From the IMG/VR virus record IMGVR_UViG_2703718837_000002: DNA of 38,688 nt. The stretch is one strand, 5' to 3'. The position numbers were made by a program, and so were the translations under genes. The notes below the pieces were generated by a model. That model saw only the letters and a program-made list of their open reading frames with translations. It ran no database searches and was not told the origin of the DNA. Shown here one piece after another: positions 7,497 through 28,034 of this stretch. The DNA comes from a virus (lineage: Duplodnaviria > Heunggongvirae > Uroviricota > Caudoviricetes). Each line of letters opens with the position of its first letter. The stretch's first letter is position 1.

Positions 7497-7523
7497 ATCC
7501 CGCCAATCGGCGGGATTTTTTTT
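7497..7523. terminator. Intrinsic terminator between convergent operons
   Basis: Stem ATCCCGCC/GGCGGGAT with 4-nt loop followed by T8 (7516-7523); sits between the + strand dar operon and the minus-strand ssb operon. Confidence 0.7.
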
Positions 7524-8304
7524 AATCGCTTTCCACTTCTTCCGTGGTGTTTTCTTGCAGTTCTGTTAATGCAGCACGACATAGGTTCCGGGCATTGGCT
7601 ATAGCCACACTTTTGACTTCATCCGTCATCGTGCAGGTAATGTACTGATCGAGTTCTTCAGCGCGGATGATGCTTTTGCCAATCAGAAACTGTATTTGCC
7701 ATAGCAGATCGGCATCCATAATCAGAATTTCTGCCGGGCCTTCAGGGCCAGCCGGGAAGGAAACATAAGACTGTTTGCCCAGGCCGACAACTCGACAACT
7801 TGCTTCAAGAATTGCGCGCTTGAGGTCTGACTTTATAACGGAAACAGGTTGATTTTCACCAGTGATTACGCCGTTGACATGGAAAGGCATGTAGCTTGAA
7901 ATACGCTCCACTTTCCACACGCCAGCAAGCGATCCTTCATGCAGCACAATGGGGGTAACCGCGAGTTTCATCTCACCATATAACTGCTGGCAGATAGCTG
8001 GATTGCTGAATACATCTAAAGGCTCACATTCAAACAGCGGCGCAATCTGCATGAGGTCCATCATGGTCATCCCTGGGGTACGAGCAGTAATGAATTTGCG
8101 CATACCAGTATCCATTGCGCTCCAGATTGCTACACCATGCTTTTTGCTCACTTCTTCAGTAAAGCCAAGGTGGCACATGATGGTTTTTTCGATAGCCAGA
8201 GCAGAGATAGAAACCTTTTCGCCAGGTACTCCATCATTATTGATGGTCACTTCGACACTCTGGCCATTACGCAGGCGGTATTGAATTGCTTTAGTATTTT
8301 CCAC
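7522..8304 (-). CDS. Hypothetical protein (260 aa), last gene of the ssb operon
   Basis: Clean ORF, 6-nt gap to the upstream gene; no motif I can assign; acidic C-terminal tail. Confidence 0.55.
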   Translation of the reverse strand: MENTKAIQYRLRNGQSVEVTINNDGVPGEKVSISALAIEKTIMCHLGFTEEVSKKHGVAIWSAMDTGMRKFITARTPGMTMMDLMQIAPLFECEPLDVFSNPAICQQLYGEMKLAVTPIVLHEGSLAGVWKVERISSYMPFHVNGVITGENQPVSVIKSDLKRAILEASCRVVGLGKQSYVSFPAGPEGPAEILIMDADLLWQIQFLIGKSIIRAEELDQYITCTMTDEVKSVAIANARNLCRAALTELQENTTEEVESD

Positions 8305-8310
8305 GTTAAA

Positions 8311-8988
8311 TCACTCCACTACAAACCAGTCACATGCCAGTAAGTCGCCTACAGAAGGAACCCACGGAACAACTACACCTTGTGCATTTTTTAAGGCGAA
8401 ATAAGCACCATACGGAACGAGGTCGCCGGGGAAATATCCCTTAATGGCTTCCATTCGTGCCGGGTACTGTCCTTCAGGAACCAGCCAGCAGAATTGGTTT
8501 TCGCCGTTCCACCCGCGTCGAGCAACTTTCTTGCCATCCTTCAGCCACATCAGCGCGTCAGAAAAGTCGGCTGCTTCAAGGTCGATTTCTTCTTGTAGAG
8601 TAGCGATACCGCCAGCAGAAATAGTTACGTCCCTGGCTGTAATGAATGTCACCCCATTGTGACCTTCAATGCTGAGCGATACCCCATTTTCGAAGAAGTC
8701 GTTAGTCCGACTAAAGCCTTCTTCAAATGTTTTTTCTGGTGAATAGGACAGAGATCCGTCCTCATAAGCGACCAGATATCCGCCAATTTCTGGTCGGTGT
8801 TTTTGCAAAAACATTTTATCAACATGGACTTTTACCCCTTCTGGCTCAACGACTTCGATGTTGCAAAGAAGGACCACATCCATTAGGGCGATAATTTCGA
8901 TATCTTTGATTTTTGAGGCACGAACTGTTTTATGGCTTTTGTATTTTGGAAGTGCCGTCAAAAGCTCTTTCGTTGTCATGTTATTCAT
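8311..8988 (-). CDS. Two-domain protein (225 aa): unknown N-terminal domain plus C-terminal DUF2829/Tad2-like domain
   Basis: C-terminal about 85 aa contains FSDALMWLKDGKKVARRGWNGENQFCWLV ... PWVPSVGDLLACDWFVV, which matches my recollection of the DUF2829 consensus; not verified by HMM. Confidence 0.55.
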   Translation of the reverse strand: MNNMTTKELLTALPKYKSHKTVRASKIKDIEIIALMDVVLLCNIEVVEPEGVKVHVDKMFLQKHRPEIGGYLVAYEDGSLSYSPEKTFEEGFSRTNDFFENGVSLSIEGHNGVTFITARDVTISAGGIATLQEEIDLEAADFSDALMWLKDGKKVARRGWNGENQFCWLVPEGQYPARMEAIKGYFPGDLVPYGAYFALKNAQGVVVPWVPSVGDLLACDWFVVE

Positions 8989-9002
8989 AGTCTTTCCTCT
9001 GC

Positions 9003-9185
9003 TTAAAACCTGATGTATTGCGCCTTCAGGTGGGTCAGGAATGTTTTCCCACCAGCGAAAGCAATATCTCGGGGTGTTCTATTCGTTAAAAGCGCGTGCC
9101 ATTGCCAACTTTGGCGTTTTTTAGCGAGTTCGTGCTTTTGTTGGCGTCTGGACCACCGCTTTTCTTTCAGTCGTTTTTTACTCAT
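9003..9185 (-). CDS. Small basic ORF (60 aa) between ssb and the 225-aa gene
   Basis: Fills the gap between ssb and the 225-aa gene with 5-nt and 14-nt spacers; K/R-rich; coding status uncertain. Confidence 0.3.
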   Translation of the reverse strand: MSKKRLKEKRWSRRQQKHELAKKRQSWQWHALLTNRTPRDIAFAGGKTFLTHLKAQYIRF

Positions 9186-9190
9186 AAACT

Positions 9191-9679
9191 CTAAAACGGA
9201 ATATCGTCGTCAAAGTCCATTGGAGGTTCGTTATTGGCGTTGCTCTGAGGTTTGCCGCCACCGCTGTATTGCTGGTGGTTTTGAGGTTGGTTTGATTGCC
9301 CCCAGCCATTTGAGGACTGTGAATCGTCACGGCGAGCGCCGATCATTTGCATGGTGCCGCCCTGGCTGACGATAATTTCCGTCGTGTAACGTTCTACACC
9401 GGCGTCATCTGTCCACTTACGGGTTTTAAGTTTCCCTTCGATGTAGACCTGAGAACCTTTTCGTAAATACTCACTCGCAATTTCAGCAAGTTTTCCGAAC
9501 AAAACGACTTTATGCCATTCTGTTTGCTCTTTCTGTTGGCCCGTTTGCTTGTCGCGCCATGATTCATTCGTTGCGATGCTGAGTCCTCCGACCGCTCCGC
9601 CATTTGGTATATACCTGATCTCCGGGTCTTGCCCCAGGGTACCAATCAGGATGACTTTGTTTACACCGCGTTGTGCCAC
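9191..9679 (-). CDS. ssb: Single-stranded DNA-binding protein (162 aa)
   Basis: N-terminal OB-fold signature [23 protein letters not shown], Gly/Gln-rich linker and acidic tail DFDDDIPF. Confidence 0.92.
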
Positions 9680-9698: not shown

Positions 9699-9715
9699 AA
9701 ATTAATTAGAGCAAT
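9699..9715 (-). promoter_or_regulatory. C1 operator-like site upstream of ssb
   Basis: AAATTAATTAGAGCAAT, one mismatch to the reverse complement of ATTGCTCTAATAAATTT. Confidence 0.5.
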
Positions 9716-9848
9716 AATGTATATCTTTGAAACGTGGCTAACAAGTGATTTGCATTATCCTGTGCCTTCTAAAGGGATCGAGTCAGTCGGTATTGGCTGT
9801 GAATGGGTGTTTGTCCTGGAGCGTAAAAAATTCGCTTATGAGGTCTTT

Positions 9849-10660: not shown

Positions 10661-10693
10661 ATTGCTCTAATAAATTTGATTTATTAGAGCAAA
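10661..10693 (+). promoter_or_regulatory. C1 operator, perfect 17-mer with an overlapping inverted partial copy
   Basis: ATTGCTCTAATAAATTT at 10661-10677, then TGATTTATTAGAGCAAA at 10677-10693. Confidence 0.75.
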
Positions 10694-15109: not shown

Positions 15110-15175
15110 TTAATTAGAATAATTCACATCGTGTTTGAACGGAATTTAACACTAGTCACTTGTTAAGGATTACCA

Positions 15176-24144: not shown

Positions 24145-24161
24145 ATTGCTCTAATAAATTT
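24145..24161 (+). promoter_or_regulatory. C1 operator (perfect 17-mer)
   Basis: ATTGCTCTAATAAATTT. Confidence 0.75.
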
Positions 24162-25809: not shown

Positions 25810-25956
25810 TTAAAAAAGGCGGCCTTTCGGCCGCCAATGATGTCACGGAGTCTGTAATAGCAATGTCTTTGTAGTTGACTAATTATATAAATAAATTATA
25901 GCAATTATATGTGGTTTGCTTATCGGGAATCACATTTCCTCACTTCAGTACCTATG

Positions 25957-26368: not shown

Positions 26369-26385
26369 CAAATAATTAGAGCAAT
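26369..26385 (-). promoter_or_regulatory. C1 operator-like site (3 mismatches)
   Basis: CAAATAATTAGAGCAAT between the cre stop and the 103-aa ORF start. Confidence 0.35.
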
Positions 26386-28005: not shown

Positions 28006-28034
28006 TTTGACAATTGCTCTAATAAATTATAGTT
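28006..28034 (+). promoter_or_regulatory. Sigma70-type promoter with embedded C1 operator (P99-like), reading toward coi-c1
   Basis: TTGACA (28006-28011), 17-nt spacer containing ATTGCTCTAATAAATTA (28013-28029), then TATAGT (28029-28034). Confidence 0.65.

What the first reader, a model, noticed from the sequence alone, without database searches (positions are those of the whole stretch)
8311..8988. ssb-operon protein with a C-terminal DUF2829/Tad2-like domain: candidate anti-defence sponge
The C-terminal third of the 225-aa protein carries motifs I associate with DUF2829 (ALxxLKxGKKVxRxGWNG near its start, DLLAxDW near its end). The family includes Tad2, a phage protein reported to sequester Thoeris and related immune signalling nucleotides. 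Here it is fused to an unknown 135-aa N-terminal domain and co-transcribed with ssb from a C1-operator-bearing promoter, i.e. expressed early on derepression.
Basis: partly seen in the sequence, partly recalled or inferred. Interest (0 to 1): 0.7.

Follow-up and report, generated by a model that had tools for sequence, protein, structure and literature searches.

The report
Dec-like/Tad2 fusion anti-defence protein in P1-like phage
A P1-like phage carries, just after its ssb gene, a 225-residue protein that joins a capsid-decoration-like OB domain to a genuine Tad2 "sponge" domain, so it most likely soaks up bacterial immune alarm molecules early in infection, and its front half belongs to a large uncharacterised family that keeps turning up fused to such sponges.

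Summary

The "unknown" N-terminal 135 residues are not unknown. They are homologous over their whole length to the phage L decoration protein Dec, meaning its OB fold plus beta-rich stalk (profile E 1.2e-8).

The window is a P1-like phage. The gene lies between ssb and an isaA homologue, behind an exact copy of P1's C1 operator Op21, and no late-promoter box precedes it. P1 itself lacks the gene. About 229 of 500 ssb-bearing plasmid records in PLSDB carry it.

The best explanation is an early-expressed immune-signal sponge; the ligand is undetermined.

The new lead concerns the Dec-like OB domain. It defines a family of about 2,571 clusters. In two independent samples, its only Pfam fusion partners were four families that all carry sponge domains: Tad2, Acb4, Sequestin and the Acb2/Tad1 hairpin.

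A published Tad2 survey deliberately excluded Dec-fused proteins, so this architecture is untested in the literature I could search.

The parts
8311..8988 (-). Coding sequence of the 225-aa Dec-like/Tad2 fusion protein (stop codon at 8311-8313).
   Evidence: The ORF is listed. Homologues of 99% identity are named 'DUF2829 domain-containing protein' by their sources. The upstream extension used in SJ46 is broken by two stop codons here.
8993..8999 (-). Shine-Dalgarno-like GAGGAAA, 4 nt upstream of the ATG.
   Evidence: Read directly from the sequence. P1 uses the same leader and ATG context for isaA.
8698..8961 (-). Residues 10-97: Dec-like OB-fold domain carrying the family motif YKSHK...KHRPEIGGYLVAYEDGSLSYSPEKTFEEGF.
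8581..8697 (-). Residues 98-136: beta-rich linker or stalk that aligns with the Dec C-terminal spike region.
   Evidence: pLDDT is below 50 in the monomer model, as expected for a segment that is disordered in monomeric Dec. The profile alignment extends to Dec residue 130. This segment varies among homologues.
8314..8580 (-). Residues 137-225: Tad2 (PF11195) domain with pocket residues W160, N161, G162, W209, S212 and D215.
   Evidence: Supported. Residue roles come from the SPO1 Tad2 and HgmTad2 papers.
9191..9679 (-). ssb, the first gene of the presumed operon.
   Evidence: Pfam SSB E 4.5e-39. It is 95-98% identical to ssb of P1 and SJ46.
9699..9715 (-). C1 repressor operator (Ossb/Op21), overlapping the sigma-70 promoters of ssb.
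   Evidence: Exact match to the operator annotated in P1. The window holds 10 operator-like sites against 0.08 expected by chance.
9003..9185 (-). A 60-aa basic ORF in the ssb-to-gene leader; a possible small gene.
   Evidence: The ORF is intact in the window, P1 and SJ46. In P1 and SJ46 its ATG abuts the ssb stop codon as TGAATG. Coding status is not established.
7522..8304 (-). IsaA-like gene (260 aa), 6 bp downstream; the last gene of the presumed operon.
   Evidence: phrog_2326 E 7.7e-149, function unknown. It is the homologue of the body of P1 IsaA. A 48%-identical copy follows a dUTPase-Tad2 fusion at a different locus in another P1-like element.
7497..7520 (.). GC-rich hairpin between the convergent hxr-like and isaA-like genes; probably a bidirectional terminator.
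   Evidence: Sequence. RNA fold energy is -17.1 kcal/mol, z-score -3.3.

Best explanation
The gene encodes an accessory anti-defence protein of a P1-like phage-plasmid.

Shown:
- The C-terminal 89 residues are a bona fide Tad2 domain with the ligand-pocket core intact.
- The N-terminal 135 residues are a Dec-like OB fold plus linker.
- The gene lies downstream of ssb, and ssb is preceded by an exact copy of the C1 operator.

Inferred:
- On infection or induction, C1 repression is absent and the ssb operon is transcribed from its sigma-70 promoters.
- The Tad2 domains assemble into the usual homotetramer, whose inter-subunit pockets sequester a nucleotide-derived immune signal. The effector of a signalling defence system (Thoeris, Pycsar or CBASS) is therefore never activated.
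- By nearest characterised relative (ModTad2, 46% identity, central insertion within one residue of the same length), His-ADPR from type II Thoeris and cUMP/cCMP from Pycsar are the leading ligand candidates. Specificity cannot be read from sequence.
- The Dec-like OB domain is a second module of the same counter-defence toolkit. It may bind a further ligand or target, or it may help the sponge in some other way. I do not think it is a capsid anchor.
For: Tad2 membership:
- Pfam E 1.6e-22 over the full model.
- PDB sequence hits to five solved Tad2 proteins.

Pocket residues:
- SPO1 W25/N26/W73/S76/D79 and HgmTad2 W21/N22/G23/W87/S90/D93 align with W160/N161/G162/W209/S212/D215.
- Of these, W160, W209 and D215 are invariant across 42 homologues.

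Expression:
- The operator is identical to P1 Op21.
- No Lpa late-promoter box lies on the minus strand upstream. The only nearby one is LPlyz on the other strand.
- No terminator-like site on the minus strand separates ssb from the gene.

Accessory, mosaic character, typical of counter-defence genes:
- The gene is absent from P1 and present in about 229 of 500 ssb-bearing plasmid records in PLSDB.
- Modules are shuffled among alleles, with four types of central insertion.
- Sister alleles fuse the same Tad2 domain to Sequestin, a proven sponge.
- The Klebsiella phage SopranoGao homologue sits in the early region next to the divergent regulators.

OB domain:
- In the library sample, the only Pfam partners among 60 long family members were Acb4, Sequestin, Tad2 and the Acb2/Tad1 hairpin.
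- In an independent IMG/VR sample, the partners were Tad2, Sequestin and the Acb2/Tad1 hairpin.
- The Acb2/Tad1 hairpin is the most frequent neighbouring family.
- One protein is a triple OB-Acb4-Sequestin fusion.
Against: - There is no experiment on this protein or on any Dec-Tad2 fusion. Such fusions were removed from the 18 Tad2 proteins tested by Hadary et al..
- Tetramer formation with a 135-residue N-terminal extension, and with a stalk that is trimeric in Dec, was not modelled.
- Peripheral pocket positions differ from every characterised Tad2: N201, Q203, V207 and G214. The ModTad2 contacts to His-ADPR were not available to me.
- Tad2 specificity is known to vary unpredictably.
- Some OB-domain genes sit beside terminase or portal genes, which also fits a structural role.
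Confidence: 0.65

Rival explanations
1. It is a capsid decoration protein. The Dec-like OB domain binds the P1-type capsid, the stalk trimerises, and the Tad2-like domain is displayed at the tip as an adhesin or as a ligand-binding head outside the cell.
For: - The N-terminal region is homologous to Dec over both the OB fold and the stalk.
- The secondary-structure order matches Dec.
- The stalk segment is disordered in the monomer model, as in Dec.
- The Dec authors speculate that Dec may bind carbohydrate.
- Some family members lie next to packaging or head genes.
- One allele carries a tail-fibre repeat.
Against: - The gene sits in the C1-controlled early ssb operon with no late-promoter box.
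- P1 assembles capsids without the gene.
- Homologues in SopranoGao/SJM3 and in Dolphis lie among early or small accessory genes.
- The solved GP4 capsid uses a different cement protein, even though the phage encodes an OB homologue.
- Dec has lost several of the family's invariant polar residues: YKDADG in place of YKCHK, and SQYGELLYMSK in place of YEDGYxSYSP.
- The stalk is not conserved across the family.
- Fusion partners are intracellular sponges.
Confidence: 0.1
2. The Tad2 domain sequesters a housekeeping second messenger such as c-di-GMP, as HgmTad2 does with picomolar affinity. The effect would be to rewire host physiology rather than to block a defence system.
For: HgmTad2 and SptTad2 co-purify with c-di-GMP through the insertion-domain pocket. 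The window protein has a 29-residue insertion in the equivalent place.
Against: - The insertion is of the ModTad2 type, not the longer 35-41-residue HgmTad2 type.
- The operon is repressed by C1 in lysogens, so it is poorly placed for long-term host manipulation.
- The fusion and neighbour pattern points to defence signals.
Confidence: 0.07
3. The Tad2-like domain is an inert or repurposed oligomerisation module. The real activity lies in the variable partner: the Dec-like OB domain here, dUTPase or Sequestin in sister alleles.
For: The same junction and Tad2 domain (98% identity) is attached to a dUTPase in another P1-like element. N-terminal modules are swapped freely.
Against: The pocket residues, not only the interface helix, are invariant or nearly so across 42 homologues. 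Such conservation would not be expected in a mere scaffold. Four insertion types at the second pocket suggest selection on ligand binding.
Confidence: 0.1
4. It is an anti-CRISPR protein of the AcrIIA7 type.
For: AcrIIA7 belongs to the same Pfam family and is a PDB hit.
Against: Li et al. could not reproduce Cas9 inhibition by HgmTad2/AcrIIA7 in vitro or in vivo. To my knowledge, E. coli and Salmonella lack type II-A CRISPR systems.
Confidence: 0.02

Closest known systems
ModTad2 (Myroides odoratus prophage Tad2; PDB 9EIB and 8V3E)
   Different: ModTad2 is a stand-alone protein of about 89 aa; here the domain is the C-terminal third of a 225-aa fusion. Peripheral pocket residues differ: T/D/A/S in ModTad2 against N201/Q203/V207/G214 here. 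The ligand of the window protein is unknown.
SPO1 Tad2 and HgmTad2/AcrIIA7 (PDB 8SME-G, 8KBI-M)
   Same: The fold is the same, and so are the residues shown by mutagenesis or crystal contacts to bind gcADPR: W25/N26/W73/D79 in SPO1 Tad2 and W21/N22/S90/D93 in HgmTad2.
   Different: Identity is only 33-40%. HgmTad2 has a longer insertion that binds cyclic dinucleotides, and SPO1 Tad2 has a different short insertion.
Phage L decoration protein Dec (PDB 6E3C)
   Same: Residues 13-129 align with Dec residues 14-130 (E 1.2e-8). The order of elements is the same: beta0, OB fold, helix, then a beta-rich tail that is disordered in the monomer.
   Different: Dec is a 134-aa stand-alone protein encoded just upstream of the terminase gene. 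It binds capsids as a trimer. The window protein is in an early operon, carries a Tad2 domain, and keeps family-invariant polar residues that Dec has lost.
Multi-sponge fusion proteins (Acb4-Tad2 of Pasteurella phage Pm86; Tad2-Sequestin; Sequestin-Acb4)
   Same: These also join a Tad2 domain to another small module in one polypeptide. Sister alleles in P1-like elements are themselves Tad2-Sequestin fusions.
   Different: In the published cases both halves are proven sponges. Here the partner, the Dec-like OB domain, has no demonstrated ligand.

Membership tests
Tad2 (PF11195, Thoeris anti-defense 2) | Sequence match to the family model above the curated threshold, over the whole domain. | tested here: met
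   80.3 bits against a cut-off of 25, model positions 2-73 of 73. Five solved Tad2 proteins are hit at E 6e-20 to 5e-8.
Tad2 (PF11195, Thoeris anti-defense 2) | [quoted passage not shown] | tested here: met
Tad2 (PF11195, Thoeris anti-defense 2) | Conserved ADPR-pocket residues: the W-N-G loop and the W...S..D segment. | tested here: met
   W160, N161, G162, W209, S212 and D215 align with the contact residues listed for SPO1 Tad2 and HgmTad2.
Tad2 (PF11195, Thoeris anti-defense 2) | Homotetramer with pockets formed between protomers. | not testable with these tools
   Only monomer prediction was available. Helix alpha1 residues F142, A145 and L146 are invariant in the family.
Tad2 (PF11195, Thoeris anti-defense 2) | Binds and sequesters an immune signalling nucleotide and thereby relieves defence. 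| not testable with these tools
   This needs binding and plaque assays. Dec-fused members were excluded from the published screen.
Tad2 (PF11195, Thoeris anti-defense 2) | Short stand-alone protein of about 90-100 aa (typical of the family, not strictly defining). | tested here: not met
   The protein is 225 aa and the Tad2 domain occupies residues 137-225.
ModTad2 clade (His-ADPR and cUMP binders) | The residues that contact His-ADPR, and those of the cUMP pocket. | tested here: inconclusive
   The window protein is 46% identical to ModTad2, with an insertion within one residue of the same length. The contact lists for 9EIB and for the cUMP model appear only in figures I could not read.
Phage L Dec-type capsid decoration protein | Dec-like OB fold followed by a beta-rich C-terminal stalk. 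| tested here: met
Phage L Dec-type capsid decoration protein | Late expression alongside the virion genes. | tested here: not met
   The gene is downstream of ssb and the C1 operator. No Lpa late-promoter box lies on its strand upstream.
Phage L Dec-type capsid decoration protein | Binds the capsid lattice and trimerises there. | not testable with these tools
   This needs virion proteomics or cryo-EM. P1 builds capsids without the gene.
Sponge-associated Dec-like OB domain family (unnamed; about 2,571 clusters) | Family motif YK(C/S)HK ... KHxPxxGGYxVxYEDGYxSYSPxxFEEGY. | tested here: met
   The window protein has YKSHK ... KHRPEIGGYLVAYEDGSLSYSPEKTFEEGF. It differs from the consensus at two Tyr positions.
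AcrIIA7 anti-CRISPR | Inhibits Cas9. | not testable with these tools
   It belongs to the same Pfam family. The published anti-CRISPR activity was not reproduced by Li et al..

The most novel reading that the evidence does not exclude
The Dec-like OB domain is itself a new, very widespread counter-defence module. It would be either a seventh-plus family of immune-signal sponges or a binder of a defence protein. Phage L Dec would then be a divergent member exapted for capsid binding, and the window protein would be a two-headed inhibitor aimed at two different signals or targets.
Probability: 0.35. Interest if true: 0.8.

Novelty: new variant of a known kind. Interest (0 to 1): 0.6.

Why it matters
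If the protein is an active sponge, then many natural P1-like phage-plasmids of E. coli, Salmonella and Shigella carry a countermeasure against signalling immunity that the laboratory archetype P1 lacks. These elements also spread resistance genes. That bears on how P1 host-range and defence-screen results should be read, because P1vir would under-report what wild relatives can overcome.

The broader point concerns the Dec-like OB domain. The same guilt-by-fusion logic that uncovered Sequestin singles out this domain, which spans thousands of clusters and is mostly found as stand-alone proteins of about 90 aa. That makes it an untested candidate counter-defence family. The hypothesis can be tested directly with existing Thoeris, CBASS and Pycsar assay panels.

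Tried and rejected
1. The SJ46-style 281-aa reading and P1's long IsaA start were rejected. That frame has two stop codons in the window.
2. I searched for a late (Lpa) promoter using the box derived from P1 LPlyz and LPpro. None lies on the gene's strand upstream.
3. NCBIfam gave no hit for the protein or its neighbours.
4. The IsaA-like neighbour led nowhere. Its family is narrow and the AlphaFold2 model reached only pLDDT 49.8, so no fold search was run on it.
5. The afdb50 fold library was unavailable. The BFVD search showed only further Tad2-like or unnamed viral proteins.
6. I checked whether the OB domain is one of the recently described sponge families:
   - Lockin is a curved beta-rich hexamer absent from INPHARED.
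   - TadIV-1 is helical.
   - Sequestin is helical.
   None of them matches.
7. The first search for related loci attempt, using the broad N-region alignment, failed for lack of a conserved stretch. A tighter alignment worked.
8. The residue lists for the ModTad2 His-ADPR and cUMP pockets could not be extracted from the text of the papers held.
9. The built-in terminator scan missed the hairpin at 7497-7520. It was confirmed by folding.

Full report
**What the window is and where the gene sits**

The region is 98% identical to Salmonella phage SJ46 and 95% identical to Escherichia phage P1, so the window comes from a P1-like phage-plasmid. On the minus strand the order is:
- the C1 operator and sigma-70 promoters;
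- ssb (9191-9679);
- a leader of about 200 nt that contains a 60-aa ORF (9003-9185);
- the finding's ORF (8311-8988);
- after a 6-bp gap, a 260-aa IsaA-like gene (7522-8304);
- a GC-rich hairpin shared with the convergent hxr-like gene (7497-7520).

The operator ATTGCTCTAATTAATTT at 9699-9715 is identical to the site annotated in P1 as Ossb/Op21, the binding site of the C1 repressor.

The late-promoter box shared by P1 LPlyz and LPpro is AACAAGTGA. Near this region it occurs exactly only at 9740-9748 on the plus strand, where it serves lyz (the other exact copy, at 15156-15164, lies far away). No copy lies upstream of ssb or the gene on their own strand. No terminator-like or promoter-like site was found on the minus strand between ssb and the gene. 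Early, C1-controlled co-transcription with ssb is therefore the most economical reading. It remains an inference.

**Checking the observation**

The ORF, its length and both quoted motifs are as described. SJ46 annotates a 281-aa product that starts further upstream. In this window that frame carries two stop codons, so the ATG at 8988, preceded by GAGGAAA, is the start.

- Pfam places a full-length Tad2-like domain (PF11195) at residues 141-224, with E 1.6e-22 and 80.3 bits against a cut-off of 25.
- A sequence search of the PDB finds every solved Tad2. The best hits are ModTad2 (9EIB, 8V3E; E about 1e-20). HgmTad2/AcrIIA7, SPO1 Tad2 and SptTad2 follow.
- An AlphaFold2 model built on 42 homologues has a confident C-terminal domain.

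**Ligand pocket**

Crystal contacts and mutagenesis identify the residues that hold gcADPR. In SPO1 Tad2 they are W25, N26, W73, S76 and D79. In HgmTad2 they are W21, N22, G23, W87, S90 and D93. In the pairwise alignments these correspond to W160, N161, G162, W209, S212 and D215 of the window protein.

W160, W209 and D215 are invariant across 42 homologues, as are helix alpha1 residues F142, A145 and L146. Peripheral positions differ from all characterised members: N201, Q203, V207 and G214.

The central insertion forms the second pocket in HgmTad2, which binds cyclic dinucleotides, and in the AF3 model of MoTad2, which binds cUMP. In the window protein it is within one residue of the ModTad2 length. 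ModTad2 inhibits type II Thoeris by binding His-ADPR. It also inhibits Pycsar, including an E. coli system, by binding cUMP and cCMP. These are therefore the leading ligand candidates. The family's specificities are diverse and cannot be predicted from sequence.

**The N-terminal region is a Dec homologue**

The model's residues 10-97 are confident and residues 98-136 are not. Four lines of evidence tie this region to the phage L decoration protein Dec (PDB 6E3C):
- Foldseek E 7.8e-4, 28% identity over 83 columns;
- a profile of 23 N-terminal regions hits Dec and nothing else significant in the PDB, at E 1.2e-8, aligning positions 13-129 with Dec residues 14-130;
- hhalign gives 95% probability.

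The order of secondary-structure elements is beta0, three strands, a helix, two strands, a helix, then a beta-rich tail that is disordered in the monomer. This matches the description of Dec. The shared core is visible by eye: Dec has FKPEVGGYLFRSQYGELLYMSKTAFEANY and the window protein has HRPEIGGYLVAYEDGSLSYSPEKTFEEGF.

Hadary et al. state in their Methods that Tad2 homologues carrying PF21825 or a PDB 6E3C-like domain were removed before they chose 18 Tad2 proteins for testing. The Dec-Tad2 architecture is thus known to exist, but I found no functional data on it in the library searched.

**What the Dec-like domain is likely to be**

A search with residues 1-136 against 1.84 billion cluster representatives found 2,571 relatives at E up to 0.001. 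The matches cover the OB core (residues about 10-97). The proteins range from 83 aa to more than 300 aa, and the domain can sit at either end.

- *Library sample.* Of 60 longer members, 16 domain hits fell in just four Pfam families: PF13876 (5), PF21825 (5), PF11195 (4) and PF24729 (2). PF13876 is Acb4 and PF21825 is Sequestin. PF11195 is Tad2, and PF24729 is the hairpin domain of Acb2 and Tad1. All four carry immune-signal sponge domains. Examples include a triple OB-Acb4-Sequestin protein and a Tad2-OB protein in the reverse order.
- *Independent sample.* I drew 78 OB-domain genes from IMG/VR viral contigs. Fifty-eight are stand-alone at 73-118 aa. Among the 20 longer ones the only partner families were again Tad2 (3), Sequestin (2) and the Acb2/Tad1 hairpin (1).
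- *Neighbours.* Among 119 immediate same-strand neighbours the most frequent single family was the Acb2/Tad1 hairpin (4). Portal and terminase families together accounted for 9. By my rough estimate, the portal and terminase count is near chance expectation for a phage gene. The sponge adjacency is roughly tenfold above chance. This is an inference, not a computed statistic.

The family keeps invariant polar and aromatic residues (H, K, H, Y, D, Y, S, E, Y). Dec has partly lost them. That pattern fits a ligand-binding or target-binding site better than a co-evolving capsid interface.

Tal et al. used exactly this fusion argument to discover Sequestin. The known sponge families listed as of April 2026 are Tad1, Tad2, Acb2, Acb4, Sequestin, Lockin and TadIV-1. 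None of them has this fold.

**Context in other phages**

- The SopranoGao homologue (OB-Tad2, 198 aa) and the 291-aa SJM3 allele are the second gene of the early rightward operon, next to the divergent regulators.
- The Dolphis OB protein, annotated as a 'capsid decoration protein', lies in a run of small unknown genes.
- dec in phage L and the Bas106 OB gene lie in the accessory slot between the lysis genes and the terminase.
- Ralstonia phage GP4 encodes an OB homologue between its portal and capsid genes. Its 3.7 A capsid structure shows a different, Ig-like cement protein.

**An accessory, mosaic gene**

P1 itself lacks the gene. The P1 protein annotated as IsaA consists of the same leader joined to the homologue of the window's 260-aa protein. 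P1's isaA begins ATGACAGCACAAAATACT. This resembles the fusion gene's internal ATGACAACGAAA joined to isaA's GAAAATACT, which suggests a deletion in the P1 lineage. That is an inference.

In PLSDB, the ssb gene is found in 500 plasmid records and the fusion gene in 229. Almost all are non-mobilizable plasmids of about 90-100 kb from Escherichia, Salmonella and Shigella.

Among homologues the OB domain, linker, alpha1-beta2 segment, central insertion and C-terminal segment recombine independently. The insertion comes in four lengths (14, 20, 29 and 37 residues). The 20-residue class also changes pocket residue N161 to K.

The same Tad2 domain is fused to other partners elsewhere:
- a dUTPase, at a cre-proximal locus in another P1-like element, again followed by an IsaA-like gene of 48% identity;
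- a C-terminal Sequestin domain;
- other unknown modules.

**Verdict**

The C-terminal domain passes every Tad2 membership test I could run. Oligomeric state and ligand binding remain untested.

The best explanation is an early-expressed immune-signal sponge (confidence 0.65) with an undetermined ligand. The main rival, a Dec-type capsid decoration protein that displays a Tad2 head, is disfavoured by four observations (confidence 0.1):
- the early operon;
- the gene's absence from P1;
- the early-region context of homologues in other phages;
- the sponge-only fusion partners.

The gene itself is a new variant of a known kind. The more interesting lead is that the Dec-like OB domain may be an unrecognised counter-defence family.

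Noticed in passing
window 9003-9185 (-): A 60-aa, very basic ORF lies in the leader between ssb and the fusion gene. It is intact in the window, P1 and SJ46. In P1 and SJ46 its ATG directly abuts the ssb stop codon (TGAATG), which suggests translational coupling. No record examined annotates it. Most substitutions between the three copies change the amino acid, so its coding status is open.
   Followed up: partly
window 8989-9156 (-); L001 4001-4963; L002 3415-4260: The N-terminal extensions annotated for P1 IsaA (320 aa, GTG start) and SJ46 gp048 (281 aa) are probably mis-annotations. The same frame has two stop codons in this window, and a good ribosome-binding site plus ATG lies downstream.
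   Followed up: yes
window 7522-8304 (-); L006 4733-5500: An IsaA-like protein of unknown function (phrog_2326) follows a Tad2 fusion gene at two different loci of P1-like elements: downstream of ssb, and near cre. The two copies are 48% identical, share an identical N-terminus (MENTKAIQYRLRNG) and have the same 6-bp spacing. It may be a functional partner or a recombination junction. Structure prediction failed at pLDDT 49.8.
   Followed up: partly
L006 4001-4726 (protein P0056): A dUTPase is fused to a 98%-identical copy of the same Tad2 domain through the same EIDLEAADFSDAL junction. The gene lies in the cre/c1-proximal variable region of another P1-like element.
   Followed up: partly
homologues P0021, P0028, P0031, P0047, P0050, P0051, P0055 and others (alignment A2): One allele class of the fusion gene in P1-like plasmids has a 20-residue central insertion. 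It also changes pocket residues (N161 to K, G214 to D or A, V207 to S or N) while keeping similar flanking modules. This suggests diversification of ligand specificity by recombination.
   Followed up: partly
protein P0272 (300 aa) and P0286 (210 aa), from the representative library: P0272 is a triple fusion of the Dec-like OB domain, Acb4 and Sequestin. P0286 carries Tad2 followed by the OB domain, the reverse of the window protein's order.
   Followed up: yes
protein P0196 (2,604 aa), from the representative library: A giant protein matches the C-terminal half of the OB domain (query residues 51-101) in eight separate stretches. The GGY...YEDGY...SP..FE unit therefore also exists as a tandem repeat in a very large protein.
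   Followed up: no
protein P0023 (306 aa): One E. coli homologue carries a phage tail-fibre repeat (PF03406) ahead of the Dec-like/Tad2 body. It may be a recombinant with a tail-fibre gene or a gene-calling artefact.
   Followed up: no
window 9699-9715, 10661-10677, 24145-24161, 25889-25905, 26369-26385, 28013-28029 and others: Ten C1-operator-like sites (up to 3 mismatches) are scattered through the window, against 0.08 expected by chance. This is consistent with the dispersed C1 regulon of P1.
   Followed up: no
window 7497-7520: A 10-bp GC-rich hairpin lies between the convergent hxr-like and isaA-like genes. It has a U-run on the plus-strand side and a weaker UUUCUUC on the minus-strand side. 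The built-in terminator scan missed it.
   Followed up: yes
window 8986-8988 versus L001 (P1 isaA start): P1's isaA start (ATGACAGCACAAAATACT) looks like a join between the fusion gene's internal ATGACAACGAAA and isaA's GAAAATACT. This suggests the P1 lineage lost the fusion gene by deletion rather than the window's lineage gaining it.
   Followed up: partly
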